A stretch of DNA of 64,000 nucleotides, from contig CAVVKJ010000007.1 of the NCBI GenBank assembly GCA_963748815.1, positions 46,941 to 110,940 on the forward strand. Reading direction: 5' to 3'. The translations under genes and the position numbers were made by a program. The notes below the pieces were generated by a model, which saw only the letters and a program-made list of their open reading frames with translations, ran no database searches and was not told where the DNA came from. The stretch comes from an uncultured Gemmatimonadales bacterium (lineage in GTDB: Bacteria > Gemmatimonadota > Gemmatimonadetes > Gemmatimonadales > GWC2-71-9). Every line of letters begins with the position of its first letter. Positions within the stretch are counted from its first letter, which is position 1. Positions 42,624 to 60,135 of the stretch are shown piece after piece.

Positions 42624-43117
42624 TCGTCGTCGTCCTCCCCACCTCCGCCGCCACCGCCCGGGGCGTTACCGGAAATCTGGAGCGTGCCGGCTGCGGGATC
42701 GTACACGGTGTTCAACTCGAAAAGGTTGCTGGTCTTCTGACCGCCGGTCCACACGCCGGTCACGGCGAAGGTGGCGCCGTGATTGGGGCAGTGGAATCCG
42801 CTCCCCTGGATGGTGACGGTGGTCCCGGCGTGCGGGCACACCATCGAATAGGCGCGGTAGGCGTCCACGCCGCTGTGATAGACCGCCACCGGCGTCCCTG
42901 AATTGCCGTCCACCCGGGCCACCCCTCCCACGGAGGCGAGCGGCGGGAAGCTGTTGACGTCGATCGAAAGATTCACCACCCCGCCTGGCCCGAGTGCGCC
43001 CCCGAAGACTCCATCACCGCACGCCGCGACGAGCACCGCGGCGACCGCCGCCATCGACGTGTCGGCCAGGAAGGCCCGACGCGAGAGTTCGCGTCGGCCG
43101 CATGATCCGTCACACAT
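42620..43117 (-). CDS. Tat-exported Rieske [2Fe-2S] lipoprotein
   Basis: SRRAFL, lipobox VAAC, CPH...CPNH. Confidence 0.88.
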   Translation of the reverse strand: MCDGSCGRRELSRRAFLADTSMAAVAAVLVAACGDGVFGGALGPGGVVNLSIDVNSFPPLASVGGVARVDGNSGTPVAVYHSGVDAYRAYSMVCPHAGTTVTIQGSGFHCPNHGATFAVTGVWTGGQKTSNLFELNTVYDPAAGTLQISGNAPGGGGGGGEDDDD

Positions 43118-43132
43118 GCCGTCTCCTCTCCC

Positions 43133-43636
43133 TCAGCCGAGGGGGATCTTGGCCGCGGCCCATCCCGCGGGGTCCTTGTCCTCTTCGAACATCACGTCCA
43201 CGTCGACCACCACCGTCTCCCCCTCCCGCCGAATGGCCAGGCGGTCCATCCCGCGGGTCGCCCGACCTGAGATGAAGGTGCCGTCGGGCTGGTACTTCGA
43301 TTTGTGCTTGGGGCACTGAAAGCGCTGGTCGGCGGGCAACCACTTGAGGGCGGTGTTCTGGTGGGGGCAGGAGAGGTTGAAGGCGTACACCATCCCCTCG
43401 AACCGCACCAGGATGACCTGTTCCTGCTTGTCGATGGTGGCGCCGTCGGCCGCGGGAATGGGGTAGGTGACGCTGGCCCCACGGACCCGCAGGGCACGTC
43501 CGCTTCGCACCGTCATCGCCTCGGCGGTCTCGGCGGAGGCACCAAGCGCCGCGAACGTGAGCAGCAGCGAGGCCGCCGCGCGCAGGAAGTCCCGGCGCCC
43601 TTCCAGTTCGCAACGACCGCACTCGTCGCGGCTCAC
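43133..43636 (-). CDS. Tat-exported Rieske [2Fe-2S] protein
   Basis: GTG start 43636 (GTGA overlap); GRRDFL; CPH...CPKH. Confidence 0.88.
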   Translation of the reverse strand: MSRDECGRCELEGRRDFLRAAASLLLTFAALGASAETAEAMTVRSGRALRVRGASVTYPIPAADGATIDKQEQVILVRFEGMVYAFNLSCPHQNTALKWLPADQRFQCPKHKSKYQPDGTFISGRATRGMDRLAIRREGETVVVDVDVMFEEDKDPAGWAAAKIPLG

Positions 43637-44127
43637 AGGTTCACCAGCATGACGCCGGTCAGCACCGCGACCAGCCAGAGGAGGGAACTGGCCGCTGCGG
43701 AACGCCGGAGTGCCTGCCAGGCGCGCTCCGTCATGTCTCCCGCTGCCAGCCGATGACCGGTTCTCCTCAACGCGGCCCCGTTCAGGAGCAACGCCGCCAG
43801 GAAGCCCATCTTGATCCAAAAGACGGGAGTCGTGGCGAAGGTCGAGACATCGGCAAAGAAGAGGAGGAACCCGCTCACGAACGAAAGGCCGAGGCCGATC
43901 ACGACGGGCGTGTGGATGGCGTTGAGCTCGGCCACGTGCACCCGACGGACCGACGCGTCGGCGTGGGTGGCCCGGAACACGGAGCGATCCGCGGCGAGCG
44001 CCAGTCCGCCGGCCACGAGAAACCCGCCGATGTGACTGAACATCACGCCGTTCATGAGCAGCGTGGAGTTGTCGTACAGGGTGGCCCAGGGTTCCGCGAG
44101 GTGCGCGAGCGATTCGACGAGTGACAT
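43633..44127 (-). CDS. DUF6644/DUF2214-like 4-TM membrane protein
   Basis: H..G....G....D, SGFLLF, FWIKM pattern; four hydrophobic helices. Confidence 0.65.
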   Translation of the reverse strand: MSLVESLAHLAEPWATLYDNSTLLMNGVMFSHIGGFLVAGGLALAADRSVFRATHADASVRRVHVAELNAIHTPVVIGLGLSFVSGFLLFFADVSTFATTPVFWIKMGFLAALLLNGAALRRTGHRLAAGDMTERAWQALRRSAAASSLLWLVAVLTGVMLVNL

Positions 44128-44130
44128 CGT

Positions 44131-44760
44131 TCAGTCCTTCCAGATGAGCATCATGAGCCAACTCGCGGTGGCCACGCTCATCGACGCGATCGCCACGTTC
44201 TGGTGCTGCTGCCGTGCATCGTACGACGACTCAGCCTGGCTGGAGAGCACGCCGGTGTAGACGAACCCAGCGTCGGCGATGAACATCAACGCGGAGTGGA
44301 TGTATCGGCGGGTGCGCCCGGCGGGGTCCTTCCGGCTGTCCCAGAGATTCCACGCACCGGTGACCGTGTTCACGGCGAACACGGCGGCCAGCGCGGTAGC
44401 GGTCGGGCCGTGGATGTCCTTGGCCCAACTGGGCGCGGCGTCGCCGTACTCCATCACCTGGGTGCCGCTGGCATACTGCAGGGCAAAGAGCGGAAGCATC
44501 GTCCAGCTGAGGATCTTGTGGATCTTCAGCCGGGTGTAGTACCCGTCGCTGTACTCCACCGCCGTCGCCCTCCGCTTGGTCGTGTCCTGCCAGGATTCCG
44601 GACCGGACCCGAGCCCGATCGCATCGGGAAGGAGCGCAGCCGGGATCAGGACCGGGGCGACGATGGGAGCCGGCGCGGCTTGTACCGTATCCGTGGCAGG
44701 AGCAGAGAGTGCGGTCGGGAGTGTGAGGAGAAGAAGCGCCACGACATCCTGCATAGGCAT
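44131..44760 (-). CDS. Hypothetical membrane protein with signal peptide and four His-bearing helices (possible heme-b binder)
   Basis: KIHKIL, DIHGP, YIHSAL, QQHQN each precede a hydrophobic helix. Confidence 0.65.
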   Translation of the reverse strand: MPMQDVVALLLLTLPTALSAPATDTVQAAPAPIVAPVLIPAALLPDAIGLGSGPESWQDTTKRRATAVEYSDGYYTRLKIHKILSWTMLPLFALQYASGTQVMEYGDAAPSWAKDIHGPTATALAAVFAVNTVTGAWNLWDSRKDPAGRTRRYIHSALMFIADAGFVYTGVLSSQAESSYDARQQHQNVAIASMSVATASWLMMLIWKD

Positions 44761-45174: not shown

Positions 45175-46272
45175 TCATTTCGATGGTGGACTGCCCCCAC
45201 TGGATGGATCCGTCACGGGGCGCAGTTCGAATTCGGTGTCACCCATCCTGAAGGTGAGCTTGGCCGGTCGTCCATCGCTTCCCTCGCCGACCGTGAGCGT
45301 CGCGGCGGTGCTGGCAAACGCGTACTCAGTGAGAGAGAGCGGAATCAGCGCCTGCCATCGACCCTCGGGCAGGTTCACCCGGAGCGCACCGGCCACCTTC
45401 GAGATGACCAAGACAAACCCGCCGTTTGCGTAGGTGCCGAGCAGCTTGTCCAAGACCCCAGCAGGCACCTTCGCTGCGGTCGGGGAGGGAGGGGGCGCAG
45501 CCACCGGCGTCTCCGTCAGTTCCCGGACCCAGATGTTCCGGTACCGGACCGGATTGCCGTGGTCCTGCAGCCCGATCGGACCCTTCGGGGCACCGACAAC
45601 GTAGGGATTCGCCTGCAGCCAGTTGGTCGGCCCCCAGAATACGGCGTTGTCCTGGATCAGGACCCCATTCTGAAAAGCCGTCATCCGTGCGGGATTCAGA
45701 AGCACGCCTGCCGAGTCGAACCGCGGGCGGTGGAAGATGATGTCGTAGGACTGCCAGATCGCCGGGGGCAGAGAAGCGTTCACCAGCGGCGGGTACTGGC
45801 CATACGCCGCCCCCGCCTGACCATCCGGATAGGTGTCGTTGTGGTAGGAGTCGAGCACCTGCAACTCATAGCTGCCCATGAGGAACACGCCGCTGTTCCC
45901 CCGGCCCTGCCCCGTGTCCTTCGGGGGAGTCGGTGCCGCCCATTCCACGTGCAGCTGGACGTCGCCGAACTCCTGTCGCGAGAACACATACCCCGCCCCC
46001 GGAACGGCCTCCATCGCGCCGTCGCGCACCACCCACCCTGCCGGTTCACCGTTGCCGTTCCGCCAGGCGCCGACCCCCGAGCCATCGAAGAGCACCACGG
46101 CGTCGGAGGGTGGGGGCAGAGGCACGGCCGCCTGTCCCGGCGTCACGACAGGGGGGCGCGGCCGGGTGAGATCGTGGGCCCGCCAGCCGGAAGGGGTCTG
46201 GGCAAGGACGAGCGACGGAATACCGAGCGCCGTCAGTGCCGCCAGGGACGGGAACAGGGACCGGGTCATCAT
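45175..46272 (-). CDS. DUF1080 (3-keto-disaccharide hydrolase-like) exported protein with C-terminal extra domain
   Basis: VVLFDG, GNSGVFL, YELQVLDS, WQSYDI, LQDHGNPVRYRNIWVREL. Confidence 0.88.
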   Translation of the reverse strand: MMTRSLFPSLAALTALGIPSLVLAQTPSGWRAHDLTRPRPPVVTPGQAAVPLPPPSDAVVLFDGSGVGAWRNGNGEPAGWVVRDGAMEAVPGAGYVFSRQEFGDVQLHVEWAAPTPPKDTGQGRGNSGVFLMGSYELQVLDSYHNDTYPDGQAGAAYGQYPPLVNASLPPAIWQSYDIIFHRPRFDSAGVLLNPARMTAFQNGVLIQDNAVFWGPTNWLQANPYVVGAPKGPIGLQDHGNPVRYRNIWVRELTETPVAAPPPSPTAAKVPAGVLDKLLGTYANGGFVLVISKVAGALRVNLPEGRWQALIPLSLTEYAFASTAATLTVGEGSDGRPAKLTFRMGDTEFELRPVTDPSSGGSPPSK

Positions 46273-46722
46273 GATTCCTCCGCGGGACGTCGGGCAATCA
46301 GCTCCACGAACTCTCCCTCCTGCACCACTTCACCCCGCTGGTTCTTCAACTCGGCGGCCAGCGTGACCAGTCCGCGCGCCGGGTTGCCAGTCGCCCGTCG
46401 GGAGGCCACCCGAAGGTGGAGGGTCACGCGGTCCCCATAGTAGATGGCCCCCCGAAACCGCCACGAGATTCCGACCAGCGCGACGAGTGTCCCCCTGGTG
46501 AGCTCCAACTGATTGGCGAGGCCGGTCGCCACGGACAGTCCCAGCGCCCCGTGGGCAATCGGGCCCTCGAACCCCGCCCTCATCGGCCGCTTCCCGGTCC
46601 AGGTGAATCGGATTTCGGTCGCCCGAGACCTCCGCGAAGGCCCTCACGTCAGCCTCGGAAACGACCCGGGCGGAGGTCACGAACTCCCCCGCCTCCTCAA
46701 AGTCCTCGAAATACATCCCCAT
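46269..46722 (-). CDS. MaoC-family (R)-specific enoyl-CoA hydratase/dehydratase (+1 frameshift near 46586)
   Basis: MYFEDF...FAEVSGDRNPIH, then GPIAHG...IYYGD in the next frame. Confidence 0.85.
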
Positions 46723-46764
46723 CGATGTCTCCTGGCGTCAGGATCTGCTGTACGCTTTGCGGCC

Positions 46765-46824
46765 TTGACAGGACAAGTATGTCACTGCATTATCGTTCGT
46801 AGCAAGAGTGTTATATGTCACTCT
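46765..46824 (+). promoter_or_regulatory. Sigma70 promoter TTGACA-N17-CATTAT with flanking palindromes (candidate operators)
   Basis: -35 46765-46770, -10 46788-46793; TGACA-N9-TGTCA 46766-46784; AGAGTG-N8-CACTCT 46805-46824; TATGTCACT repeated at 46778 and 46814. Confidence 0.6.
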
Positions 46825-46843
46825 CCACACGGGCGTTTCCAAT

Positions 46844-47731
46844 ATGGCACGTAGGTCGGCTCCCAGCCTTCGCTCCCAGGATCTCGTCTTCACCCTCTTC
46901 GGCGACTACTTGCTGGAGCGGGAGCGCCCCGTCTGGACTGGGGGGCTGATCACCCTCCTCGGCGAGCTCGGGCTTTCCCCGATGGCGGTGCGGACGGTCC
47001 TCTCCCGAATGACCCGAAAGGGCTGGCTCACCGCCGAGCGCCTGGGAACCCGGAGCTGGTACGGGTTGACGGCCAAGGGGAGGAAACTGCTCGAGTCTGG
47101 CCGCGAGCGCATCTACCACCCCGCCTCGGACGCGGCCTGGGACGGCGACTGGTCTGTCGTGGTCTTTTCGGTGCCGGAAGCCCGCCGCCGGCTTCGCGAC
47201 GCCCTTCGGGTCCGGCTGGCCTGGCTCGGGTGCGGTCCGCTCACCAGCGGTGTGTGGATCACGCCCCACGACGTGCGCGCAGAAATCCTCGAGATTGCGG
47301 CGGACCTCAAGCTCGGGAAGAATCTCGAGATTTTCCGGGGCGCCCACCTGGCCCACTCGACCCCCGAGCGGCTGGTCGCGCAGTGCTGGGACCTGGCGGA
47401 GCTCGATCGCCGCTACGCCGCGTTCATCGCCCGCTGGAGCCGTGAGTTCGAGCACTGCCGCCAGTGCGGCATGACCGGGGCCAAGGCGGGGATCCACACG
47501 CCGTGCACCGCGCCCGCCGACTGCTTCCGGCGGCGGTTCCTCCTGGTGCACGAGTACCGGGCCTTCCCGCTCGAGGACCCCTACCTCCCGAGCGCCCTCC
47601 TGCCCGCCGGCTGGCATGGGGAGAAGGCGGCGCGGCTCTTCGAAAGCTATCACGATGTGCTGGCGGGCCCCGCCGAGGGGTACGTGGCCGGCGTGTGCGC
47701 CGAAGGCGACGAAATCGTCGCCGCCGCCTGA
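46844..47731 (+). CDS. PaaX-family transcriptional regulator with Cys-rich insertion
   Basis: VFTLFGDY, VRTVLSRM, WDGDW, VPEARR..RDALR..LAWLG, QCWDL, DPYLPSALLPAGW. Confidence 0.9.
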   Translation: MARRSAPSLRSQDLVFTLFGDYLLERERPVWTGGLITLLGELGLSPMAVRTVLSRMTRKGWLTAERLGTRSWYGLTAKGRKLLESGRERIYHPASDAAWDGDWSVVVFSVPEARRRLRDALRVRLAWLGCGPLTSGVWITPHDVRAEILEIAADLKLGKNLEIFRGAHLAHSTPERLVAQCWDLAELDRRYAAFIARWSREFEHCRQCGMTGAKAGIHTPCTAPADCFRRRFLLVHEYRAFPLEDPYLPSALLPAGWHGEKAARLFESYHDVLAGPAEGYVAGVCAEGDEIVAAA

Positions 47732-47761
47732 CGCTGCGATTCATCCACCGAGGACAAGCCG

Positions 47762-48808
47762 ATGCGTGAATTCGATTCCCGGGACGCCGCTTCGTTCGAC
47801 TTCGCCGAGGTAGGGTACCACAAGGCGGACTGGGTGGCCACCGTCACCATCAACCGTCCGCACAACTACAACGCGTACAGCACCGCCGCGCTCCGTGAGC
47901 TGGCCACCGCGGTCCAGGACGCCTCCTTCGATGACGCCATCGGCGTCATCGTGGTCACCGGCGCCGGCACCTCCGCCTTTTGCACCGGTGGCGACGTCAA
48001 GGAATATGAGGAAGCGTACACCAGCCGTCCGCGCGACTACTGGAAGTACATGGGACTCTTCCGCGCCTGGATCGAGAGCCTGGTCAACGCGGGGAAGCCG
48101 GTCATCGCCCGGATCAACGGCATGGCGGCCGGCGGCGGCAACGAGTCGCAGCTGGCCTGCGACCTCGCCGTCATGGCGGAGCATGCCTGGATCGGGCAGG
48201 TGGGCACCCGGGTCGGGAGCGTGGCGGCCGGCGGCGCCACGCAGTGGCTGCCGATCCACATCGGCGACCGCCGCGCCCGCGAAATGCTCCTGCTGAACAA
48301 CCGGATCCCCTCCGATAAATGCCTCGAGTGGGGGCTCGTCAACCGCGTGGTGCCGTCGGTGACGAAGGACGGGACGTTCATCACCGGCGCCACGCCGGAA
48401 CAGGTGGCGTTGGCGCAGAAGGGGAAGGACGGGTACGCCATCGACCTCTCCCGACTCGACGCCTCGGTCCAGGACCTCGTGGCGCAGCTCCTCAAGCAGT
48501 TCCCGGAATGCCAGCGCTACACCAAGCAGCAGGTCAACTTCTGGAAGGAGCTGGCGTGGCACCAGACGATCGGCCACGCGCGGGACTGGCTCTCCACCCA
48601 CTACACCAGCGTCGAGCCGTGGGAGGGAATGCGGGCCTTCGTCGAGAAGCGGCCGGCAGACTACCTCGGCCTCCGCGAGAAGGCCGCCAAGGGGGGATCG
48701 AGCGAGTTCCTCTGGGGGCCGTACGCCTCCGATTGTCCCGCTTGCGGCGCCAAGGGAATCCCCTCGGCCTTCGCCTTCTGCGGCGCGTGCGGTGGAGCGA
48801 TGCGCTGA
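47762..48808 (+). CDS. oah: 6-oxocyclohex-1-ene-1-carbonyl-CoA hydrolase-like crotonase (Oah/BamA/BzdY) with C-terminal zinc ribbon
   Basis: YNAYST, AFCTGGDVKEY, Y..YM.LF, VVP....G.F, IDLS.LD, FPEC, AR.WL match Oah as I recall it; gene context. Confidence 0.8.
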   Translation: MREFDSRDAASFDFAEVGYHKADWVATVTINRPHNYNAYSTAALRELATAVQDASFDDAIGVIVVTGAGTSAFCTGGDVKEYEEAYTSRPRDYWKYMGLFRAWIESLVNAGKPVIARINGMAAGGGNESQLACDLAVMAEHAWIGQVGTRVGSVAAGGATQWLPIHIGDRRAREMLLLNNRIPSDKCLEWGLVNRVVPSVTKDGTFITGATPEQVALAQKGKDGYAIDLSRLDASVQDLVAQLLKQFPECQRYTKQQVNFWKELAWHQTIGHARDWLSTHYTSVEPWEGMRAFVEKRPADYLGLREKAAKGGSSEFLWGPYASDCPACGAKGIPSAFAFCGACGGAMR

Positions 48809-49584
48809 TGCCGGCCACGGCGAGCACCGCGCGCTACACTCGCGAGGGGGGCATCGGGCGACTGGTGCTGGACCGGCCCCCCGTCAACGTGCTCAATCTC
48901 GAGGGCATGGAGGCGCTGCAATCGGCGCTGGCAGAGGCCGCCGCCGACCCACGGCTCAAGGTTCTGGCCCTGTCGGGCGCCGGCCGGGCGTTCTCCGCCG
49001 GGGTGGACGTCGCCGACCACACCGCCGACCGGGTGGCTCGGATGCTGGCGTTGTTCCACGGCGCGATCCGGCAGTTGATGGCGCTCGAGGTGCCGGTCGT
49101 GGCCCTCGTCCATGGCGCGGCGCTCGGTGGCGGATGCGAGCTCGCCATCGCGTGCGACATGATCTTCGCGCGCGACGACCTGAAGCTTGGCCAGCCGGAG
49201 ATCCAGCTTGCCGTCTTCCCGCCCGTGGCCGCCGCCCTCCTCCCGAAGCTGATTGGACGGCAACGGGCGCTCGACCTGGTCCTGACCGGCCGGACCATCG
49301 GCGCCGCCGAAGCGCTGCGCATGGGACTCGTGAGCCGCGTCTTCTCCGCCGCTGACTTCGACACAGGAACGGACGCCGCACTCGCCGAGATCGCCTCGCG
49401 CTCCGGGCCGGCGCTGCGGCTGGCCAAGCGGGCGGTGCTGGATGGCATCGACCGTTCGTTCGCCCCCGCGCTCCAGCGGGCGGAGGAGCTCTACCTGCAC
49501 GAACTCATGCAGCTCGCCGACGTGCATGAGGGGCTCGCCGCCTTCATGGAGAAGCGGGCGCCGGTCTGGGAGGATCCCGCATGA
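48808..49584 (+). CDS. dch: Cyclohexa-1,5-diene-1-carbonyl-CoA hydratase-like crotonase
   Basis: FSAGVDVADH, LGGGCEL, LGQPEIQLAVFPP, ELYLHELM...EGLAAF; gene context. Confidence 0.8.
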   Translation: MPATASTARYTREGGIGRLVLDRPPVNVLNLEGMEALQSALAEAAADPRLKVLALSGAGRAFSAGVDVADHTADRVARMLALFHGAIRQLMALEVPVVALVHGAALGGGCELAIACDMIFARDDLKLGQPEIQLAVFPPVAAALLPKLIGRQRALDLVLTGRTIGAAEALRMGLVSRVFSAADFDTGTDAALAEIASRSGPALRLAKRAVLDGIDRSFAPALQRAEELYLHELMQLADVHEGLAAFMEKRAPVWEDPA

Positions 49585-50759
49585 GCGCCACGGCCACCGC
49601 CTTCGACGCCGCCGCCGTCGCGGCACTCCCGCTCGACGCCGCCCTCGGCGAGTGCCGGGACCTGCTGGAAGATCCGGCATTCCCCACGGTGCATGCGTGG
49701 AAGGAGTCGGGCGGCAAGGTGCTGGGGCATTTCCAGGTCTACTTCCCCGAAGAGCTGGTCCACGCGGCCGGCATGCTGCCCGTCAAGGTGCGCGGCGCCC
49801 CGGTGGAAATGCGGCAGGCCGACTCCCACTTCGGCTCGTATCTCTGTTCCATCATCCGGAGTTCGCTCGAAGTCTGTCTCGACGGCCGGTTGCCGCTCGA
49901 CATGTTCGTGACACACCCGATCTGCGACGCGGCACGCAACCTGGCCGGTGTGTGGGCACGGAACCTCCCCTACCCGGCGCAGATCCTCTACCTGCCCCAG
50001 AACGTCAATTCCTCCGGGTCTGCCGCCTATCTTCGCGACGAGTATGCGCGGATGCTGGGCGACATCGAAGCGGTGGCCGGCCGCCGGGTCACCGACGCTG
50101 ACCTGCGGCGCTCCATCGCCGTCTTCAACGAGAACCGGCGGCTCCTCCGCGAGGTCTACGCCATCAAGCGGGAGACGCCCTGGCTCCTGCCGGTGGACCA
50201 GGCCTACGTGATGATCGCGCTGGGCGCCGTGCTCCGCCGCGAGGACCACAACACCCTGCTGCACGCGATGATCCCGCAGATCCGGCGGCGGACGGACAAG
50301 TCCCAGGACAAGATCCGGATCGTGCTGGAGGGGGGGTTCTGCGAGCAGCCACCCCTCGACCTGCTGGCCGTCATCGGGCAGTCGTGCTACGTGGTGGACG
50401 ACGACCTGCTGATCGGCCTCCGCTTCCTCGTGCAGGACGTCGACACGCAGGGCGATCCCCTCGCCGCGCTGGCCGACGGCTACCTCAACGGATCCTCGTA
50501 CAGCCCCGTCCAGCACGACACCCGCAAGCCCAAGGAGCAGATGCTGCTGGACCGGCTGCACGGCGCCAGAGCGCAGGCTGCCATCCTGGCCGCGGCCAAG
50601 ATGTGCGAGCCGGGGCTGGATGAGCAGGTCGCCTACACCAAGGCGCTGGACGAGGCGCACATCCCCTACTTCGTGACCGAGTTCGAGGAGAAGATGTCGG
50701 GCTTCGACCAGATGCAACTCCAGCTCGAGACGTTCATCGAAAGCATCCTGTTCGACTAG
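49581..50759 (+). CDS. bcrC: Class I benzoyl-CoA reductase subunit C
   Basis: ELVHAAGMLP, SYLCSIIRS, ICDAARNL, LPQN, NENR, FCEQPPLDL, CYVVDDD match Thauera-type BcrC as I recall it. Confidence 0.85.
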   Translation: MSATATAFDAAAVAALPLDAALGECRDLLEDPAFPTVHAWKESGGKVLGHFQVYFPEELVHAAGMLPVKVRGAPVEMRQADSHFGSYLCSIIRSSLEVCLDGRLPLDMFVTHPICDAARNLAGVWARNLPYPAQILYLPQNVNSSGSAAYLRDEYARMLGDIEAVAGRRVTDADLRRSIAVFNENRRLLREVYAIKRETPWLLPVDQAYVMIALGAVLRREDHNTLLHAMIPQIRRRTDKSQDKIRIVLEGGFCEQPPLDLLAVIGQSCYVVDDDLLIGLRFLVQDVDTQGDPLAALADGYLNGSSYSPVQHDTRKPKEQMLLDRLHGARAQAAILAAAKMCEPGLDEQVAYTKALDEAHIPYFVTEFEEKMSGFDQMQLQLETFIESILFD

Positions 50760-50768
50760 GGAGGAACC

Positions 50769-52070
50769 ATGATCACGGAACAGGAGATCGTCGGCCGGGG
50801 CGCCCTCGAGGGCGCCAAGCTGATGCGCGACTGGTTTGCGCGGCTGGACCAGGCCGCCGAGCGGAAGGAAACCGCCGCCTACGTCTTCGTGATGGGGAGC
50901 CTGGCGGAGGTCCTGCGCGCCTTCGACATGCACCTGGTCTTCCCGGAGATCAACTCCCTCCAGACGGCCGTGCGTCACGTGGCGCACGAGTACCTCGGCA
51001 TGGCCGAGGACTACGGCTACTCGCCCGACGTCTGCGGCTACGTGAAGGCCGATGTCGCCATGCAGCTCCAGGACGGCAAACACTCCATGGGCCGCCTCCC
51101 GAAGCCGGCGCTCGCCATTGCCACCAATGCCTGTAACACCTACGTGAAGTGGGCCGAGTTCTGGGAGCGCTACTACAAGATTCCCATGGTCACCCTCGAC
51201 ATCCCCGGATCGCGGACCGCCGCGGGCGGCGCGCCCGTCGGGTCGGCCTCCTTCGAGAGCGACCGCCGCTACCTCGAAGTCCAGCTCCGCGAGTTGATCG
51301 CGGAATGCGAGCGGCTGACCGGTTCGACGCTCGACATGGACCGGCTGCGGGAGGTGCTCGACTACACCAACCGGATGGCGGCCGCGTGGAAGCGGGTGCT
51401 TGAGCTCAACCAGCGCCGCCCGGCCATGTTCAACGCGCTGGTGGACGGCACGATCTACCTCGGCGTCCTGAACGCGCTGCGCGGCACCCGGGAAGGGGCG
51501 GAGTACTTCGAACGGCTGGTCGAGGAGATGGAGTACAAGGCCGCGCACCGGCTGGGCACCATCGAAGACGAGAAGTACCGGCTGCTCTTCGTGGGCGTGC
51601 CCTGCTACCCGATCTTCCGGCGTTTCCACGAGATGTTCGCCGACCAGGGGGGCGTCTTCGTCGCGTCGAGTTACCTCTGGTTCGCCGCCGGGGGCCTCGA
51701 CCTGGGTTTCCAGTACGACCTGGAACGGCCCATCGAGAGCCTGGCCGAAGGGGTCCTCGTCGGGGTCCGCCACGCCGGCGACGCGATGCTCTTCCACGAC
51801 CAGTCGCTGATCGAGCAGGTCGACCAGTTCGAGGCCGACGGCGTCGTGTACCACCCTGTGAAGAGCTGCCGGACCGTGTCCACCAGCCTGGCCGGCAGCC
51901 GGAAGGCGCTGATGAAGGCCCGCGACGTCCAGTGCCTCTTCATCGAGTCGGACATGATGGACCGCCGGGTGGTGTCCGAGGCACAGCTCAAGAACCGGAT
52001 CGACGCCTTTTTCGAGGGCCTTGGCTCGCAGCGGCTTCGCGCCACCGCGGCCACGGCCCGATCGGAGTGA
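50769..52070 (+). CDS. bcrB: Class I benzoyl-CoA reductase subunit B
   Basis: [54 protein letters not shown]. Confidence 0.85.
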
Positions 52071-52072
52071 TC

Positions 52073-52885
52073 ATGCGATACAGCGGCGGTGTGGACGTCG
52101 GCTCCACCCAGACCAAGGCGGTCGTCATCGACGAGGCGCGCCGGATCGTGGGGCGGTCGCTCATCATGACCGGCGCCAACGTGGTCGTGGCGGCGCAGGA
52201 GGCGTTCCAGGCGGCGCTCGACGACGGGGTCGTGCGTGAAGCCGACGTGGGGTACGTGATCGGGACGGGCTACGGCCGGTACAAGGTGTCATTCGGCAAC
52301 GATCAGGTGACCGAAATCAGCTGCCACGCCCGGGGGGCCGCGCACCTCTTTCCCGGCACCCGCACGGTGCTCGACATGGGGGGCCAGGACACGAAGGCCA
52401 TCCGCGTCACCGAAACCGGCGACGTCCTCGACTTCTGCATGAACGACAAGTGCGCGGCCGGCACCGGCCGCTTCTTGCAGGCGGCGAGCTTTGCGCTTGA
52501 GATCCCGCTCGGCGAGCTCGGCGGCGTGGCGCAGCGGGCCACGCGGCCCGTGAAGATTTCGACGACCTGCACCGTCTTTGCAGAATCGGAAGTGCTGGGC
52601 TGGGCCGCGAAGGGGAAGAAGATCGAGGACATCCTGATGGGGGTGCATCGATCCATCGCCGCGCGCTCGGTCTCGCTGCTGCGACGGGTCGGCGTCGAGG
52701 AACGGATCACCTTCACCGGCGGGGTCGCCCGCAACGAAGCGATGGTGGCGGTGCTGAACGAGCTCCTCGGCACGCCACTCCAGGTCGGGGAGGACTCGCA
52801 TTACATGGGGGCGCTGGGCGCGGCGCTCTTCGCCATGGATCGCATCGTCGCCGGGCAGGCCGCCCCGGCAGGAGCCGCCTCATGA
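52073..52885 (+). CDS. ASKHA ATPase [4Fe-4S] activation subunit (BcrA/BcrD/HgdC family), copy 1
   Basis: [49 protein letters not shown]; about 270 aa. Confidence 0.88.
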
Positions 52886-53697
52886 CCGACCTGACCGCCG
52901 GCATCGACGTCGGCTCGACGTACACCAAGGCCGCGCTGCTGAACGGCGCGGGCACGCTGGTGGCCACCGCCATGATCCCGACAGGGTTTCGTCTCGACGT
53001 CGCGGCCAACGAGGCGTACGCCACCCTGCTCCGCCACGCCGACGTGCCGCGGGAGGCCGTGGCCTATGTGGTCAGCACCGGTGCCGGGAGGTACCAGGTG
53101 CCGTTCCGGGACCTCCACGCCACCGACCTGACGGCGCAGGGACGCGGGACGCGCCACTTCTTTCCCCACACCCGTACCGTCCTCGACGTCGGCGGCCAGA
53201 CCATGAAGGCCAGCCGGCTCGACGACCGGGGCCGTGTGGCGGCGTTCCGGCTGAACGACAAGTGCGCTGCCGGCACCGGGGCGTTTCTTGAAAAGACCGC
53301 CCGCTATCTCGGCTTCGGGACGGAACAGATCGGCGCCATCGCGGCGGCCTCGGCCGAGGCGGCGTCCATTTCGGGAGTGTGCGCCGTCTTCGCCGAGTCC
53401 GAAGTGATCAACCACGTCTCGAGCGGACGTGCGCCGGGCGACATCCTGCACGGCGCCGTGGTGTCGCTCGTGGCGCGGTCGGTCCAGTTGATGAAGCGGG
53501 TGCGCCTGGAACCGGAAATCACCCTCGTGGGCGGGATCATGCGGTTTCCCACCATGGTGCGGGTGCTCCGGGAGGAACTCGGGCAGGAGGTCAACGTGCC
53601 GCCGGAGCCGCTGGCGCAGTTCACCGCCGCCATCGGCGCGGCGGTGCTCGGGCAGCAGCGGCTGGCCAAGCGCGCCGCCGAGCACGTGGCGGCCTGA
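52882..53697 (+). CDS. ASKHA ATPase [4Fe-4S] activation subunit (BcrA/BcrD/HgdC family), copy 2
   Basis: [37 protein letters not shown]; 271 aa. Confidence 0.88.
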
Positions 53698-53942
53698 TGG
53701 GCAGGGCGCTCCCGGTCCTCGAGCCGGGCGGTGACGCGCCCGACCCGCTGGTCGAGAAGGGCTGGGAGCGCCGTTTCATTGCCGTCGGCGCGCGCCTGGA
53801 GGAGTCCGTGGCACTCTACAAGGAACTCGGATTCGAGATCCGGCTCGAGCTTCCCACCGCCCTGGATCTGCGGGAGGAATGTGGCGACTGCCACGCCGCG
53901 CTCCAACTCTATCGTGTCCTGTACACCAGGAGACCTGGATGA
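53697..53942 (+). CDS. Small hypothetical protein (81 aa) with CxxC(H), inside the bcr operon
   Basis: TGATG and ATGA overlaps at both ends; GWERRF...LYKELGFEI...CGDCH...LYTR. Confidence 0.75.
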   Translation: MGRALPVLEPGGDAPDPLVEKGWERRFIAVGARLEESVALYKELGFEIRLELPTALDLREECGDCHAALQLYRVLYTRRPG

Positions 53943-54961
53943 AGGCTGCTGTCTTCCACGCCGCGCACCAGCCACTCGAACTGGCCGATGTCCCCACCCC
54001 TGAACCGAAGGCGGGCGAGGTCCTGGTGAAGGTGGCCGGGTGCGGTGTCTGCCACACGGACCTCCACTACCTCGATCACGGCACGCCGACCTTCAAGCCA
54101 CCCCCGATCATCCTGGGACACGAGGTGGCCGGCACCGTTGCCGAGGTCGGGCCGGGCGTCACGGCGCTTGCCGCGGGCGCCCGGGTGCTGATTCCCGCGG
54201 TGCTCTCCTGCGGGCACTGCACCCTCTGCCGCTCGGGCCGCGAGAACATCTGCGAAAACAGCCAGATGCTCGGCAACCACATCGACGGCGGCTACGCGGA
54301 GTTCGTGGCCGTGCCGGCGAAGGACGTGGTCCCGATGCCGGATGACGTCCCGCTCATCGAGGGTTCGATCATCGCCGACGCCGTCACCACGCCGTATCAC
54401 GCGGTCGTCCGCCGCGGCAAGGTGACCCCGGGCGACTGGGTGGTGGTGTTCGGCTGCGGCGGGGTGGGTCTCTCGCTGGTCCAGGTCGCCGCCGCGGTCG
54501 GGGCCCGGGTCATCGCGGTGGACGTGAAGGATGCCAAGCTGGCGACGGCCACACGATTCGGCGCCACCGCGGTGTTCAATGCGGCGACGACCAAGAGACT
54601 GGACAAGGAGATTCGAGGCCTCAGCGGCGGCGGCGTCGACGTGGCGTTTGAGGCGGTCGGCAAGGCCGCCACCCAGGAAGCGGCGCTGAACTGCCTGACC
54701 ACCGGCGGCCGGCTGGTGCTGGTCGGGTACAGCCCCGAGACGCTGCCGCTCAACGCCGGCCGCGTGATGTTCCGGGAGATCGAGGTGATCGGCTCGCTGG
54801 GGTGCCGCCCGGTGGACTATCCACGCGCCATTGAACTGGTGCGCCAGGGCCACGTCCGGCTGATGGATCTCGTGACCCATCGCTTTCCACTCGAACAGAT
54901 TGCGGACGCGCTCGACACCCTCCGGGGCGGCGACGCCATCCGCGTGGTGGTGACCCCATGA
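53939..54961 (+). CDS. had: 6-hydroxycyclohex-1-ene-1-carbonyl-CoA dehydrogenase-like Zn alcohol dehydrogenase
   Basis: GCGVCHTDL, LGHE, IPAVLSCGHCTLC...IC, ADAVTTPY, GCGGVG; gene context. Confidence 0.8.
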   Translation: MKAAVFHAAHQPLELADVPTPEPKAGEVLVKVAGCGVCHTDLHYLDHGTPTFKPPPIILGHEVAGTVAEVGPGVTALAAGARVLIPAVLSCGHCTLCRSGRENICENSQMLGNHIDGGYAEFVAVPAKDVVPMPDDVPLIEGSIIADAVTTPYHAVVRRGKVTPGDWVVVFGCGGVGLSLVQVAAAVGARVIAVDVKDAKLATATRFGATAVFNAATTKRLDKEIRGLSGGGVDVAFEAVGKAATQEAALNCLTTGGRLVLVGYSPETLPLNAGRVMFREIEVIGSLGCRPVDYPRAIELVRQGHVRLMDLVTHRFPLEQIADALDTLRGGDAIRVVVTP

Positions 54962-55407
54962 AGATTACCGACGCCCTCCTCGGTGAGCATGGCGCCTTCT
55001 ACGCGCAGTTCGACCGGCTCGAGGAGACCCTGCCGCACACTACCTCGGTCGGCGAAATCCGGGAACAGGCGGCACTCCTTGCCGCGGCGCTGGTGTCCCA
55101 CGCCCAACTGGAGGACACCCTGCTCTTCGAGCGGATGCGTGCCGCGGGCGGCGACGAAGGACTCCTGAGCACCATGGAGGCGGAGCACACCGAAATTGCC
55201 GGGATGCTGACCCGCGCCCAAGGATCCAAGGAGGTTTCCGTGGCCCGGGAGGAACTGCTCGAGGCGGTGGCACTGGCCCGGGACCACTTTGCCAAGGAGG
55301 AGCAGATCGCCTTTCCGCTGGCCGAGAATATTCTCGGCGCGGTGGGGCTCACAGCCCTGGGAGCGCGCTGGTCGGCGCGCCGGGAGGTGTTTCTCGGGGA
55401 CGGTTAG
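54958..55407 (+). CDS. Hemerythrin-like (HHE) domain protein
   Basis: EH...HAQLED.LLF...EH...HFAKEE; ATGA overlap with had. Confidence 0.82.
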   Translation: MKITDALLGEHGAFYAQFDRLEETLPHTTSVGEIREQAALLAAALVSHAQLEDTLLFERMRAAGGDEGLLSTMEAEHTEIAGMLTRAQGSKEVSVAREELLEAVALARDHFAKEEQIAFPLAENILGAVGLTALGARWSARREVFLGDG

Positions 55408-56516
55408 CCCGCGTCACCCGCCGACATCTTGTGCGCCTTCCGCCCGCCGCGCGGCGTCCGCTCCGTACCTTGCCCCGCCGCCACCAGCGCCGACGCCTTG
55501 GCGACCGTGCGTGCCGCCAGCTCCCGCGCCCCCTCGTGCAACTCCTCGCTCTCCTGCACCACGGCGACGTTTCGCTCCATGTCCTCCGCCGACCATCCTC
55601 GGCTGTGGGCGATGAACGGGAATTGCGGGAAGTCGAAACCGAGCTCTGCAAAGAACATCAGCATCTGTCCCGCCACCGCCTGCACGTTGTCCTGCCCCCC
55701 CGTGATGATGAATGCGGCCGCCTTGTTCCGGATCAGCACCCGGTCGCGGATGGTGACCTGATTCTGGATGCAGTTCATCCGCTCGATCAGCTTGAAGTAA
55801 AGCGAGCTGGCGCTTCCCCACCGGATGGGGGAGGCCAGGATGACCGCATCGGCCCAGAAGACGAGTCCCTCGTACACCTCGACCATCTGGTCCTTCGAGT
55901 CCATCTGGGTAATGGAGCAGGGCCAGGTGCAGGCGTGCGCACTCTTCGAGTAGTACCCCTCGCAATTCCGGACACGCAGGTCGTTGGCCTTGATCAATTT
56001 TGTCTCAGCGCCGAGCGTCCCGGCGTGCGCCAGCGCAATCTGGAGTAGCGCATCAGAGGTCGAATACCGGGGAAACTTTGCGTCCATCGCCGTGGTGGAC
56101 AGGCCGAGGACACGGATCGGTCCGGGCTCCCGCACGACGGGGCGTTCGAGCGGATGTCGCTCGTGCGGCGCCTTGTGCCGCTTCGTGGCCGGCACAGGGT
56201 TGAGCAGGAGCCTCCCGGCCTCCTCCCGCAGCTCGTGGCGCGGGACACAATCATCTTCATACCCCGGTTCGCCCTCACCCGTGGCGCGATGGAATTTCCA
56301 GTGGTGCCAGGGACAGACGATGTAGTCCCCGTCGAGGGTGCCATCGCCGAGCGGGCCCGCGGCGTGGTTGCACACCCCTGACACCGCACCGAACACCCCG
56401 TTCTGATAGCTGAGCGCGATCTTGAGCTTCCCGTGCGTGACCTGCCGGAGCGGGACGCCCTTCAGCTCCTCGACCGGACCGAGGTCGACCCAGCCAGAAT
56501 CACCCGTACCCTTCAT
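55404..56516 (-). CDS. Rieske ferredoxin fused to flavodoxin-like NADPH-dependent FMN reductase
   Basis: CNH...CPWH, then CEGYYS...CTWPC, ADAVILASPIRWG; start MKGTG at 56516. Confidence 0.85.
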   Translation of the reverse strand: MKGTGDSGWVDLGPVEELKGVPLRQVTHGKLKIALSYQNGVFGAVSGVCNHAAGPLGDGTLDGDYIVCPWHHWKFHRATGEGEPGYEDDCVPRHELREEAGRLLLNPVPATKRHKAPHERHPLERPVVREPGPIRVLGLSTTAMDAKFPRYSTSDALLQIALAHAGTLGAETKLIKANDLRVRNCEGYYSKSAHACTWPCSITQMDSKDQMVEVYEGLVFWADAVILASPIRWGSASSLYFKLIERMNCIQNQVTIRDRVLIRNKAAAFIITGGQDNVQAVAGQMLMFFAELGFDFPQFPFIAHSRGWSAEDMERNVAVVQESEELHEGARELAARTVAKASALVAAGQGTERTPRGGRKAHKMSAGDAG

Positions 56517-57616
56517 GGGCCCGTCCCTGCCGCGGCGTACCAGCCCACCACTCTTCCGGCGAGGGCATTCAGCCCCCCCTTGTCGGTGTTGACCGTAATC
56601 GCGACCACCAGGTCCTGGTCGGGATAGAGCGCAAGGAGGGATACCCCGCCGATGGAGCCGCCGGTGTGCGCAATCCGCCGCCGCCCCTGCGCGTCGGCAT
56701 CGACGCCCCACCCGATGCCGTAGGTCGTGGCGGTGCCGTCGCGCAGCGGCATTGGCGTCCACATCATCTCCCGCGTGGCAGCGGTCAGCAGCTTTCCGTC
56801 GAGCAACGCCTGCCCAAACCGCGCGAGGTCCTCGGTCGTGGAGAGAAATCCGCCGCTCGGCCATTTGTAGCTGTTGTCCACGTAGGGCGCGTTGCGGAGC
56901 GGGCTCCCACTGTCGGGGCCGGCATAGAAGCTGGTCCGGCCCGGGATGATGCTGTCGGGATAGTCGGCCACCGTGGCGTTCATGCCCAGCGGCGCGAAGA
57001 CCCGGTCATGCATGAACCGCAGGTAGGGCACCCCCGACGCCCCCTCGATGACGGCGCCCAGGAGGTTGTACCCGAAGGACGAGTAGCCGAACCGCGTCCC
57101 CGGCTCGAAGAGGAGCGAATCGTCCTCGAACATGCGGAGGCCGTCGCGGAGCGTCGGGTAGTACCGCTGATTCTCGAACTCACCCTCCTTGTAGTGCCGG
57201 ATGCCGGCCTGGTGACCGGCCAGCTGCCGGACGGTGACGGGCCAGGGCTTGCGGGGGAAGGTGGGGACGTACCGCTGTACCTCCGCGTCCAGGTCAAGCC
57301 GACCCTCATCGACCAGGAGGCCAAGTGCCACCGCCGTGAAGGGCTTTGCGATCGACCCGACGCGGTAGCGGGTGGACGCTCGGGCGGGCGCTGCCAACTC
57401 GACGTCTGCCATGCCAAACCCGCGGCTCAAGACGACCTTGCCGCCGCGTATCACCGTCACGGAGGCTCCGGGTATGCCGAGCTCCCGCATGCGCGCCGGG
57501 AACACAGCCTCGACAGAATCGCGGGGGACAACGCGTGCGGCGCCCGTGGTCGCCTGGGCGTCGAGCACCGCCGGCACCACCAGGAGGAAGAGGGCGATCG
57601 GCCAAGCCCGTCGCAT
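56513..57616 (-). CDS. Exported serine hydrolase (AmpC/beta-lactamase-related family)
   Basis: Signal peptide; SIAK, YSS, HTG motifs. Confidence 0.88.
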   Translation of the reverse strand: MRRAWPIALFLLVVPAVLDAQATTGAARVVPRDSVEAVFPARMRELGIPGASVTVIRGGKVVLSRGFGMADVELAAPARASTRYRVGSIAKPFTAVALGLLVDEGRLDLDAEVQRYVPTFPRKPWPVTVRQLAGHQAGIRHYKEGEFENQRYYPTLRDGLRMFEDDSLLFEPGTRFGYSSFGYNLLGAVIEGASGVPYLRFMHDRVFAPLGMNATVADYPDSIIPGRTSFYAGPDSGSPLRNAPYVDNSYKWPSGGFLSTTEDLARFGQALLDGKLLTAATREMMWTPMPLRDGTATTYGIGWGVDADAQGRRRIAHTGGSIGGVSLLALYPDQDLVVAITVNTDKGGLNALAGRVVGWYAAAGTGP

Positions 57617-58993: not shown

Positions 58994-60109
58994 TTACGCC
59001 GAACCGGCAAAGCGCACAGCGTAGACCGGCGGGAGGTGCTCCGAGATCGCCTTCCAGGAATCGCCCTGGTCCTCCGTGATCCAGAGCGACCCGGTGGTGG
59101 TCCCGAAGGCGAGCCGGTCGCCGCTGGCGTCGATGTCGAGCCCATGCCGGTAGGTGATGTCGTACGCCTGACGCTGCGGCAGCCCCTTGGTGAGCGCCTC
59201 GAAGGTCCGCCCGCCGTCCCGCGTCCGATTCACGATGACCCGCCCATCCACCGGGATGCGCCGCTGGTCGCTCATGCCGGGCACGAACCACGCGGTGCCG
59301 CCGTCCCGTGGATGCACCACCACCGCAAACCCGAACGAGGAGGGCGCCACCTCGAGTTCGCGCCACGACGCGGCATCATCGGTGGAGCGGAAGATCCCGT
59401 TGTGGTGTTGCACCCACCAGTGCGCCGGCTGGGCCGGGCATTGCACGAGCCGGTGCACATCCTGCACGTGCGGATCGTTCGCCTGCTCGGGTGGGAAGTA
59501 GTCCGCGCGCATGCCGTGACTGCTGATGGTCCAGGTGGCGCCGCCGTCGGTCGTGAGCCAGACCCCTCCGGTCGAGACGCCCACCGCCACTCGCCGCGGA
59601 TCGCGCGGATCGACGCTCACCGAGTGGATGCCCGGGTAGTCCGCCCCGCCACCCATCCACTCGAGCCGCTTCGGATGGTCCCAGAGGGCGGTGTTGAGCT
59701 GCCAGCTCGTCCCCGCGTCATCGGAACGGAAGAGACCGCCGGGAATCGTCCCGCACCAGAGCGAGCCCGGCCGCGCGGGGTCCGCTGGCTCGAGCGCCCA
59801 GGTCAGCTGCACGCTGTCCGGAATCGTGCGCCCCATCGGGTCCATGCGCGGCGCGGTGCCCTCGGGGCGCGCCGGAAGTGCTGGCGTGGCAATCTCCTCC
59901 CACTTGCGCGCCCCCTGGCGCAACCGGTGGAGCTTCACGCCGAAGTGCCCGTGGCCGAGGGCCACATACACGGTACCGTCGCGCGGGTCGGGCAGGACCA
60001 TCGTGGCGTTGTCGCCGAGAAAGTGGATCTTCTTGATCGTCCATCTCGACTTGCCGCGTTCGACCTGGAAGAGGCCCTTGCGGGTGGCAACGAAAAGGCG
60101 CGTGCTCAT
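58994..60109 (-). CDS. Cytoplasmic BNR/Asp-box (sialidase-like) beta-propeller
   Basis: Start MSTRLFVATRKGLF at 60109; repeated SxDxGxxW; QHHNG; no signal peptide. Confidence 0.85.
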   Translation of the reverse strand: MSTRLFVATRKGLFQVERGKSRWTIKKIHFLGDNATMVLPDPRDGTVYVALGHGHFGVKLHRLRQGARKWEEIATPALPARPEGTAPRMDPMGRTIPDSVQLTWALEPADPARPGSLWCGTIPGGLFRSDDAGTSWQLNTALWDHPKRLEWMGGGADYPGIHSVSVDPRDPRRVAVGVSTGGVWLTTDGGATWTISSHGMRADYFPPEQANDPHVQDVHRLVQCPAQPAHWWVQHHNGIFRSTDDAASWRELEVAPSSFGFAVVVHPRDGGTAWFVPGMSDQRRIPVDGRVIVNRTRDGGRTFEALTKGLPQRQAYDITYRHGLDIDASGDRLAFGTTTGSLWITEDQGDSWKAISEHLPPVYAVRFAGSA

Positions 60110-60135
60110 CGGGTGGTTCCTCCGTCCCTGTGGGA

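What the first reader, a model, noticed from the sequence alone, without database searches (positions are those of the whole stretch)
46844..55407. Self-contained anaerobic benzoyl-CoA dearomatisation operon with non-canonical architecture in an aerobically equipped bacterium
Seen: ten co-oriented genes, mostly with overlapping stop/start codons: PaaX regulator, oah, dch, bcrC, bcrB, two ATPase subunits, small CxxC gene, had, hemerythrin. Established: BcrBC plus ATPase subunits, Dch, Had and Oah form the upper Thauera-type pathway from benzoyl-CoA to 3-hydroxypimeloyl-CoA, characterised mainly in Proteobacteria and Ferroglobus. Inference: this organism (probably Gemmatimonadota, with a caa3 oxidase 12 kb away) can reduce aromatic rings. 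The gene order, regulator and accessory genes differ from the bcr/bad/bzd/mbd clusters I know. The cluster has no benzoate-CoA ligase and no 2x[4Fe-4S] ferredoxin.
Basis: partly seen in the sequence, partly recalled or inferred. Interest (0 to 1): 0.88.

Follow-up and report, generated by a model that had tools for sequence, protein, structure and literature searches.

The report
Gemmatimonadales ATP-driven aromatic ring-reduction operon
An uncultured Gemmatimonadales bacterium carries a real ten-gene operon that likely breaks aromatic rings without oxygen, using a close relative of a known ATP-driven enzyme; the operon is common in its phylum, and only its regulator and a few helper genes are unusual.

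Summary
In detail: ten co-oriented, tightly packed genes at 46844-55407. All four reductase subunits are closest to the solved 3-methylbenzoyl-CoA reductase MbdONQP of Thauera chlorobenzoica (O-subunit model TM 0.95, 49% identity), so this is an MBR-type class I reductase. The two short ATPases are normal for that type, and oah-dch-C-B-A-D is the Thauera gene run. The host is an uncultured Gemmatimonadales; 48 of 301 phylum genomes carry the same type, as do Chloroflexota, Acidobacteriota and Planctomycetota. The ligase and electron-supply genes missing from the cluster lie elsewhere in the genome, which also encodes nosZ and a cbb3 oxidase, so an 'aerobic' host is no paradox. The small CxxC gene tracks the reductase (44 of 48 genomes versus 1 of 253) and is homologous to the gene in the bzdS slot of a bzd operon. 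Activity, substrate and expression are untested. This scan has reported the same operon in other Gemmatimonadota genomes.

The parts
46269..46722 (-). Divergent MaoC-like (R)-specific enoyl-CoA hydratase gene, split over two frames here by one extra base (assembly error or recent break); role in the pathway unknown
   Evidence: PF01575 hit; one base longer than all 11 relatives aligned; present in 17 of 80 loci and co-oriented behind dch in 5 Chloroflexota loci
46765..46793 (+). Sigma-70-like promoter, TTGACA-17-CATTAT (predicted)
   Evidence: Only promoter-like site in 46200-56600, shuffle mean 0.4; TTGAC conserved in 11 close relatives
46778..46850 (+). Candidate operator: TATGTCAC at 46778 and 46814, TATGGCAC at 46843, inverted repeat AGAGTG-N8-CACTCT at 46805-46824 (inferred PaaX sites)
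   Evidence: Conserved in close relatives; 7-mer core upstream of paaX in 11 of 11 close Gemmatimonadales loci but in few Chloroflexota loci
46844..47731 (+). PaaX-family repressor, 295 aa, with a CxxC-x12-C-x5-C insert (C205, C208, C221, C227)
   Evidence: Three PaaX Pfam domains; TIGR02277 215 bits, cut-off 265; insert in the window and 11 closest relatives, absent from 18 other cluster PaaX rows and E. coli PaaX, 1 row unusable
47762..48808 (+). Oah-like ring-opening hydrolase, 348 aa, with a C-terminal zinc ribbon (C325, C328, C340, C343)
   Evidence: TIGR03200 best hit, 198 bits, cut-off 464; sister clade to canonical Oah to the exclusion of BadI/MenB, FastTree support 96-98
48808..49584 (+). 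Dch-like dienoyl-CoA hydratase, 258 aa
   Evidence: TIGR03189 best hit, 179 bits, cut-off 293; in a 64-row clade (support 95) with over-cut-off Dch
49581..50759 (+). Reductase subunit MbdN/BcrC-like, 392 aa
   Evidence: 532 bits to MbdN (9g87_B) versus 140 HadC and 102 BzdN; tree
50769..52070 (+). Catalytic reductase subunit MbdO/BcrB-like, 433 aa; E60, C89, C122, C367
   Evidence: 478 bits to MbdO versus 100 HadB and 81 BzdO; model TM 0.95, rmsd 1.3, 49% identity to 9g87_A; residues
52073..52885 (+). ATPase subunit MbdQ-like, 270 aa; C127, C166
   Evidence: 394 bits to MbdQ (269 aa) versus 218 to the Had activator; cysteines
52882..53697 (+). ATPase subunit MbdP-like, 271 aa; C128, C167
   Evidence: 280 bits to MbdP (273 aa) versus 197 MbdQ and 166 Had activator
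53697..53942 (+). Small conserved CxxC protein, 81 aa, homologous to the gene in the bzdS position of a bzd operon
   Evidence: Invariant G22 W23 E36 Y41 G45 C62 C65 T77 R78 in 38 sequences; co-occurrence; HHalign 96%, E 1.4e-9 to the L187 gene
53939..54961 (+). Had-like zinc alcohol dehydrogenase, 340 aa, outside the canonical Had clade
   Evidence: TIGR03201 best hit, 271 bits, cut-off 339, next family 212; tree; canonical rows over cut-off
54958..55407 (+). Hemerythrin-like (HHE) protein, 149 aa, with H11, H48/E52, H77, H110/E114
   Evidence: PF01814; residues read from the translation; in 17 of 80 loci by tblastn

Best explanation
The operon encodes a four-subunit, MBR-type class I aryl-CoA reductase with three follow-up enzymes that would likely convert benzoyl-CoA, or a ring-substituted benzoyl-CoA, to 3-hydroxypimeloyl-CoA when oxygen is low or absent. 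Shown: gene content, order, homology, conserved catalytic residues, distribution. Inferred from the known enzymes: MbdQ/P-like subunits hold a bridging [4Fe-4S] cluster and use ATP to pass low-potential electrons to the N/O dimer; the O subunit reduces the ring to cyclohexa-1,5-diene-1-carbonyl-CoA; Dch hydrates it, the Had-like enzyme oxidises it and the Oah-like enzyme opens the ring. Inferred from the genome: the unlinked benzoate-CoA-ligase-family enzyme (C8) supplies the thioester; Kor, PFOR or Rnf reduce a ferredoxin (C5); shared beta-oxidation genes, a glutaryl-CoA-dehydrogenase-like gene and ETF finish the job; N2O, nitrite or traces of O2 are the acceptors. PaaX would repress the upstream promoter until an aryl-CoA binds. 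The CxxC protein and the hemerythrin are most likely dispensable helpers that protect or repair the oxygen-labile Fe-S clusters (speculative, about 0.3).
For: All four subunits hit MbdONQP first by wide margins. Trees place O and N in one clade (support 100) sister to over-cut-off BcrB/BcrC (99), with BzdO/N and dehydratase-like rows outside. E60, C89, C122 and C367 align with BzdO E65, C95, C128 and C380 (PMC11971306). Two different ATPases rather than one. Oah, Dch and Had are the best family hits and flank the reductase across phyla; canonical Oah/Had take the place of the window's types beside the same reductase in L077, L095, L133, L139 and L145. Ligase over cut-off in 4 of 5 genomes of the genus, the fifth in two pieces. 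Kor alpha and RnfC over cut-off; PFOR-like, BoxB-like, clade II nosZ (split), nirK-like and NiFe hydrogenase genes present; cbb3 oxidase over cut-off in 4 of 4 relatives.
Against: No activity or expression data. Every equivalog score in the operon is below cut-off. Identity to the characterised MbdO is only 49%, and MbdO itself is not in my trees. The Had-like protein is outside the canonical Had clade (support 100) and its position is unresolved. BzdO His131 is Tyr here (Phe in MbdO). The only small ferredoxin found is FdxA-like, probably 7Fe, not 2x[4Fe-4S] (genome 86% complete). No Nar or Nap was found in 5 genomes. The ligase sits in a salicylyl/anthraniloyl-CoA monooxygenase-type cluster and may serve that aerobic route. 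The HcrCAB-like genes are below cut-off and occur in 101 of 253 genomes without this reductase, so they are weak support.
Confidence: 0.82

Rival explanations
1. The reductase acts on a different cyclic CoA ester (a bicyclic, heteroaromatic or partly reduced ring), and the divergent Oah, Had and MaoC form a ring-opening route other than the 3-hydroxypimeloyl-CoA one.
For: Oah and Had form their own clades. MaoC travels with the cluster in 17 of 80 loci, and an SDR lies between oah and dch in 9 of the G-genome loci with this reductase (L130 not among them). L083 and L105 carry an over-cut-off Bzd reductase next to this one, which hints at a different substrate.
Against: Canonical Oah and Had flank the same reductase clade in other genomes. 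The window-type Oah also sits in canonical bcr clusters (L126, L128). G000 has only this one reductase.
Confidence: 0.11
2. The four genes encode a 2-hydroxyacyl-CoA dehydratase with its activator, as some database names for the homologues say, for amino-acid fermentation.
For: Same Pfam family. NCBI names several homologues '2-hydroxyacyl-CoA dehydratase'. HadB/HadC are second-rank structural hits, TM 0.83.
Against: HadB and HadC score 100 and 140 bits against 478 and 532 for MbdO and MbdN. There are two different ATPases. Dehydratase-like rows fall outside the clade. There is no CoA-transferase in the cluster, and ring-cleavage genes are its neighbours.
Confidence: 0.04
3. The operon is a silent or decaying acquisition in an aerobe.
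For: The MaoC gene is frameshifted here.
Against: All ten genes are intact, GC matches the genome, order and promoter are conserved across the genus, and nosZ and ccoN are also split in this assembly while ccoN is whole in 4 relatives, which points to assembly indels.
Confidence: 0.03

Closest known systems
3-Methylbenzoyl-CoA reductase MbdONQP (MBR-type class I BCR) of Thauera chlorobenzoica (PDB 9g87, 9gai, 9gal, 9gba) and the mbd cluster of Azoarcus/Aromatoleum sp. CIB (PMC4424350)
   Same: Four subunits, each the top solved-structure hit; two short ATPases of about 270 aa; same fold (TM 0.95) and catalytic Glu/Cys set; Dch, Had and Oah-type partners.
   Different: 49% identity in the O subunit; N precedes O here, while the mbd operon starts with mbdO; PaaX instead of TetR-type MbdR; no ferredoxin MbdM, ligase MbdA, ABC transporter or lower-pathway genes in the cluster; hemerythrin and small CxxC gene present. 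Whether mbd clusters have the same Oah/Had types or a CxxC gene could not be tested.
Thauera-type bcr cluster, had-oah-dch-bcrCBAD-fdx (PMC6449761 passage)
   Same: The run oah-dch-C-B-A-D is the same; BcrB/C are the sister clade (support 99).
   Different: About 33-36% identity, below TIGR02260/02263 cut-offs; no long BcrA; had moved to the back; no fdx or korAB alongside. True Bcr clusters also occur in Gemmatimonadota (L126, L128, L140-L142) and lacked the CxxC gene in all 14 such genomes.
bzd operon bzdNOPQMSTUVWXYZA of Azoarcus/Aromatoleum (PMC5658619, PMC6678401)
   Same: N-before-O order, short ATPases, and a homologue of the small CxxC gene behind the ATPase and ferredoxin genes (bzdS position, L187).
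   Different: Catalytic subunits only 21-29% identical; BzdR regulator; ferredoxin, NADPH oxidoreductase and ligase inside the operon.
PaaX of the E. coli paa cluster (PDB 8a39)
   Same: Same three domains; aryl-CoA-responsive repressor family (112 bits).
   Different: Heads an anaerobic reductase operon; four-cysteine insert; different upstream repeats.

Membership tests
MBR-type class I benzoyl-CoA reductase | Two HGD-D catalytic subunits plus two different ATPase subunits, adjacent | tested here: met
MBR-type class I benzoyl-CoA reductase | Each subunit closer to MbdO/N/Q/P than to Bcr, Bzd or Had proteins | tested here: met
   49% to MbdO versus 32-35% to over-cut-off BcrB
MBR-type class I benzoyl-CoA reductase | Catalytic Glu and three Cys ligands in O; two Cys per ATPase | tested here: met
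   E60, C89, C122, C367; C127/C166 and C128/C167
MBR-type class I benzoyl-CoA reductase | One clade with the characterised MbdO in a tree | tested here: inconclusive
   MbdO was not available as a stored sequence; the clade is coherent (support 100) and reaches a 55%-identical proteobacterial row, L182
MBR-type class I benzoyl-CoA reductase | ATP-dependent reduction of (methyl/halo)benzoyl-CoA | not testable with these tools
   needs an assay
mbd gene cluster (Azoarcus sp. CIB) | TetR regulator MbdR, ferredoxin MbdM, ligase MbdA and ABC transporter in the cluster | tested here: not met
   PMC4424350 passages
Thauera-type BcrCBAD | TIGR02260/02263/02259/02261 cut-offs, long BcrA, BcrB clade | tested here: not met
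   215/487, 258/421, 212/578, 140/313 bits; sister clade only
BZD-type BzdNOPQ | TIGR03190/03191/03192 cut-offs and clade | tested here: not met
   102/454, 89/449, 195/380 bits
2-hydroxyacyl-CoA dehydratase (HadBC/HgdAB) | Single homodimeric activator; HadB/HadC family scores; dehydratase clade | tested here: not met
   two different ATPases; 139/750 and 169/700 bits
Oah (TIGR03200) | Equivalog cut-off | tested here: not met
   198/464 bits; works-like claim rests on sister position, support 96-98
Dch (TIGR03189) | Equivalog cut-off and clade with canonical Dch | tested here: inconclusive
   179/293 bits, but in one clade with over-cut-off rows, support 95
Had (TIGR03201) | Equivalog cut-off and canonical clade | tested here: not met
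   271/339 bits; outside the 12-row canonical clade
BzdS | Homology to the gene between bzdM and bzdT | tested here: inconclusive
   Homologous to the gene in that slot of an unnamed bzd cluster; no database names it BzdS and the CIB protein was not available
PaaX | PaaX, PaaX_M and PaaX_C domains | tested here: met
   the TIGR02277 cut-off for paa-operon PaaX is not reached

The most novel reading that the evidence does not exclude
This is the main, database-mislabelled class I reductase lineage of uncultured soil and sediment bacteria, and it comes with an oxygen-management kit: a BzdS-family CxxC protein that binds the ATPase module to shield or rebuild its [4Fe-4S] cluster, a hemerythrin that buffers O2 or NO, and a PaaX whose four-cysteine insert senses oxygen as well as aryl-CoA. 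That would let N2O-respiring or microaerobic Gemmatimonadales switch between Box-type and reductive ring cleavage, and would give the long-unexplained bzdS a function.
Probability: 0.15. Interest if true: 0.7.

Novelty: new variant of a known kind. Interest (0 to 1): 0.36.

Why it matters
About one in six sampled Gemmatimonadota genomes (48 of 301) carries this reductase type, yet it falls below curated family cut-offs and is often named a dehydratase, so marker surveys may undercount anaerobic aromatic degraders in soil. A link to clade II nosZ would couple aromatic oxidation to N2O removal. The small CxxC family ties two reductase types together and turns bzdS, a gene of unknown function in a model operon, into a simple knockout or binding test. 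The chemistry itself is known.

Tried and rejected
Rfam scan of the window: 0 hits. Small protein: no Pfam, NCBIfam, PDB-sequence or plasmid hit; Atlas gave only 'hypothetical' clusters at 0.87-0.88; model pLDDT 78 with no clear fold match (best Z 4.1; Foldseek E >= 1.6). Complex prediction of the small protein with both ATPases gave no verdict. No RNA holder was listed. Hcr-like genes as specific support: rejected, since they occur in 146 of 301 genomes, 45 of 48 with and 101 of 253 without this reductase. A genome-wide PaaX regulon: TATGTCAC occurs 21 times and none lies at the ligase, box-like or hcr-like clusters. The first BcrB tree did not finish its careful search and had long-branch joins; I rely on the smaller FastTree runs without the five double-cubane rows and L159. 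Attempts to reach Thauera/Aromatoleum mbd clusters through family searches around G607, G501, G437 and G385 did not deliver one. Tiedt 2018 and Lopez Barragan 2004 are not held. Plasmid hits of 22-30% were other HGD-D proteins. Lateral island: rejected, GC 67-70% like the rest.
Full report
Observation. The ten genes are real, intact and co-oriented at 46844-55407, with gaps of +30, -1, -4, +9, +2, -4, -1, -4, -4. Family scans give PaaX, Oah, Dch, BcrC, BcrB, two CoA-activase ATPases, no hit for the 81-aa gene, Had and hemerythrin; all equivalog scores are below cut-off. The caa3 oxidase genes lie 12.0 kb upstream. A divergent MaoC gene at 46269-46722 has one base more than all 11 relatives aligned. 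Other genes of this assembly are also split (nosZ, ccoN), so an assembly error is likely. GC is like the rest of the window.

What the reductase is. Against solved structures all four subunits hit MbdONQP first: O 478 bits (HadB 100, BzdO 81), N 532 (HadC 140, BzdN 102), Q 394, P 280. The O-subunit model (pLDDT 89) matches 9g87_A of Thauera chlorobenzoica at TM 0.95, rmsd 1.3, 49% identity, against 22% for HadB and 21% for BzdO. PMC11971306 (parts 1-2 of 8 and passages read) names BCR, MBR and BZD types of class I enzymes, says they are common in facultative anaerobes, and gives BzdO E65, C95, C128 and C380 as catalytic residue and ligands; these align with E60, C89, C122 and C367. In FastTree runs on a chosen subset of loci (47 O rows, 38 N rows; double-cubane rows and L159 left out) the window's proteins lie in one multi-phylum clade (support 100), sister to BcrB/BcrC rows that pass their cut-offs (99), with Bzd and dehydratase-like rows outside. 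MbdO itself could not be put in the tree.

Host and spread. The nearest named loci (93-96%) are uncultured Gemmatimonadales. In 301 genomes of the phylum, 62 have a hit: 48 at 60% identity or more (this type) and 14 with only 34-37% as best hit. Three of those 14 were checked and pass the BcrB cut-off; L141 and L142 show had-oah-dch-bcrCBAD. The 80 best of 566 GTDB loci include Chloroflexota, Acidobacteriota, Planctomycetota and a few Pseudomonadota. The core N-O-Q-P order is kept wherever the contig extends; PaaX is in 30 of 80 loci, hemerythrin in 17, MaoC in 17. The 301-genome counts include G157, which is unpublished; it is a hit only.

Follow-up enzymes. The Oah-like protein belongs to a 29-row clade, most rows with a C-terminal zinc ribbon, sister to canonical Oah and apart from BadI and MenB. 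Dch groups with canonical Dch (support 95). The Had-like protein is outside the canonical Had clade and its position is unresolved, though Had is its best family by 59 bits. Canonical Oah/Had and the window's types alternate beside the same reductase, which argues for the same reactions. The Thauera order is had-oah-dch-bcrCBAD-fdx (PMC6449761, passages), so the window differs by moving had and lacking fdx.

The small CxxC gene. Nine residues are invariant in 38 homologues, including C62 and C65. The profile hits 45 of 301 genomes: 44 of the 48 with this reductase, none of the 14 with the other type, and G012, where the gene sits beside had and dch at a contig end. Kin are not independent, so this is not a statistical test. 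It is in 55 of 80 named loci; of the 25 without it, 11 end too early and 14 lack it locally, so it is dispensable. A homologue (HHalign 96%, E 1.4e-9) lies in locus L187 in the order bzdN, O, P, Q, ferredoxin-like ORF, this gene, GNAT, PHP, Fe-S flavo-oxidoreductase. That is the S slot of bzdNOPQMSTUV (PMC5658619 and PMC6678401, passages). The name BzdS rests on position only. The predicted beta-alpha-beta-loop-beta fold has no clear match.

Regulation. PaaX has a CxxC-x12-C-x5-C insert in the window and its 11 closest relatives only. The 120-bp intergenic region is conserved, with a TTGACA-17-CATTAT promoter and TATGTCAC repeats. PaaX binding is inferred. The mbd cluster uses TetR-type MbdR (PMC4424350, passages).

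Rest of the genome (86% complete). Benzoate-CoA-ligase family gene over cut-off at C8:65743, in a salicylyl/anthraniloyl-CoA monooxygenase-type cluster. An FdxA-like, probably 7Fe, ferredoxin at C5:21586 is the only small ferredoxin in my gene calls; that a 7Fe ferredoxin serves the Azoarcus reductase is recalled, not checked. Two Kor pairs, a PFOR-like gene with an Rnf cluster, a BoxB-like gene with beta-oxidation genes, an acyl-CoA dehydrogenase with ETF that I read as glutaryl-CoA dehydrogenase (54% to a gene in canonical bcr clusters), clade II nosZ, a nirK-like gene and a NiFe hydrogenase are present. No Nar or Nap was found in 5 genomes. cbb3 oxidase passes its cut-off in 4 of 4 relatives. 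This fits a facultative or microaerobic organism.

Literature. Ten searches found no paper that describes this operon, a PaaX-headed reductase cluster or a BzdS function. Passages of bioRxiv 10.1101/2023.07.10.548433, PMC11704145 and PMC8329499 report bcr genes in Krumholzibacteriota, Zixibacteria, Acidobacteriota and archaea, and mention Gemmatimonadota only in passing; their supplements were not read and may list Gemmatimonadota bcr genes. Tiedt 2018, which defined MBR, was not held and may already show such homologues. Earlier notes of this scan report the same operon in other genomes; they were read after my tests and are not evidence.

Verdict. Real, and most likely an MBR-type aryl-CoA dearomatisation operon (0.82). 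The chemistry is known and the operon is common in uncultured phyla. The regulator, the Oah/Had variants and the BzdS-like gene make it a variant worth a modest score, 0.36.

Noticed in passing
G000:C10:228843-237189 (L112): TetR-led cluster with a short BoxB-like protein (376 aa, TIGR03225 227 of 499 bits), aldehyde dehydrogenase, thiolase, PaaH-like and three crotonase genes; no BoxA-like gene seen in it. BoxB-like hit in all 5 genus genomes.
   Followed up: partly
G000:C5:88532-92809 (L119): HcrCAB-like molybdoenzyme with the four-cysteine insert in the beta subunit, below cut-off; found in 146 of 301 phylum genomes, far more than ring reductases, so it may have another substrate.
   Followed up: partly
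G000:C10:127487-141844 (L116): Rnf cluster fused in one run with a large PFOR-like gene and a Kor pair; several genes are split in this assembly.
   Followed up: partly
L083:730-11275 and L105:782-11272: Two Gemmatimonadota loci carry an over-cut-off Bzd-type reductase directly upstream of the MBR-type one.
   Followed up: partly
L126-L128 (G016, G038): Canonical bcrCBAD followed by hcr-like genes, the zinc-ribbon Oah type and two further HGD-D genes with activases, one fused to a long N-terminal part.
   Followed up: partly
window 55404-56516 (-): Rieske domain fused to a flavodoxin-like FMN reductase domain, convergent with the operon and conserved at this place in most close relatives.
   Followed up: no
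window 42620-44760 (-): Two Tat-type Rieske proteins with two membrane proteins, a possible small electron-transfer unit.
   Followed up: no
window 58994-60405 (-): BNR-repeat sialidase-like gene behind a MoaD/ThiS-like gene.
   Followed up: no
G000:C5:267517-271667 and C10:1006497-1013113: Multiheme cytochromes with 16-30 CxxCH motifs, possible extracellular electron transfer as a further anaerobic acceptor route.
   Followed up: no
L182:8547-9848 (G774): A lone MbdO-like gene (55%) with no partner subunits within the fetched stretch, deepest row of the clade.
   Followed up: no
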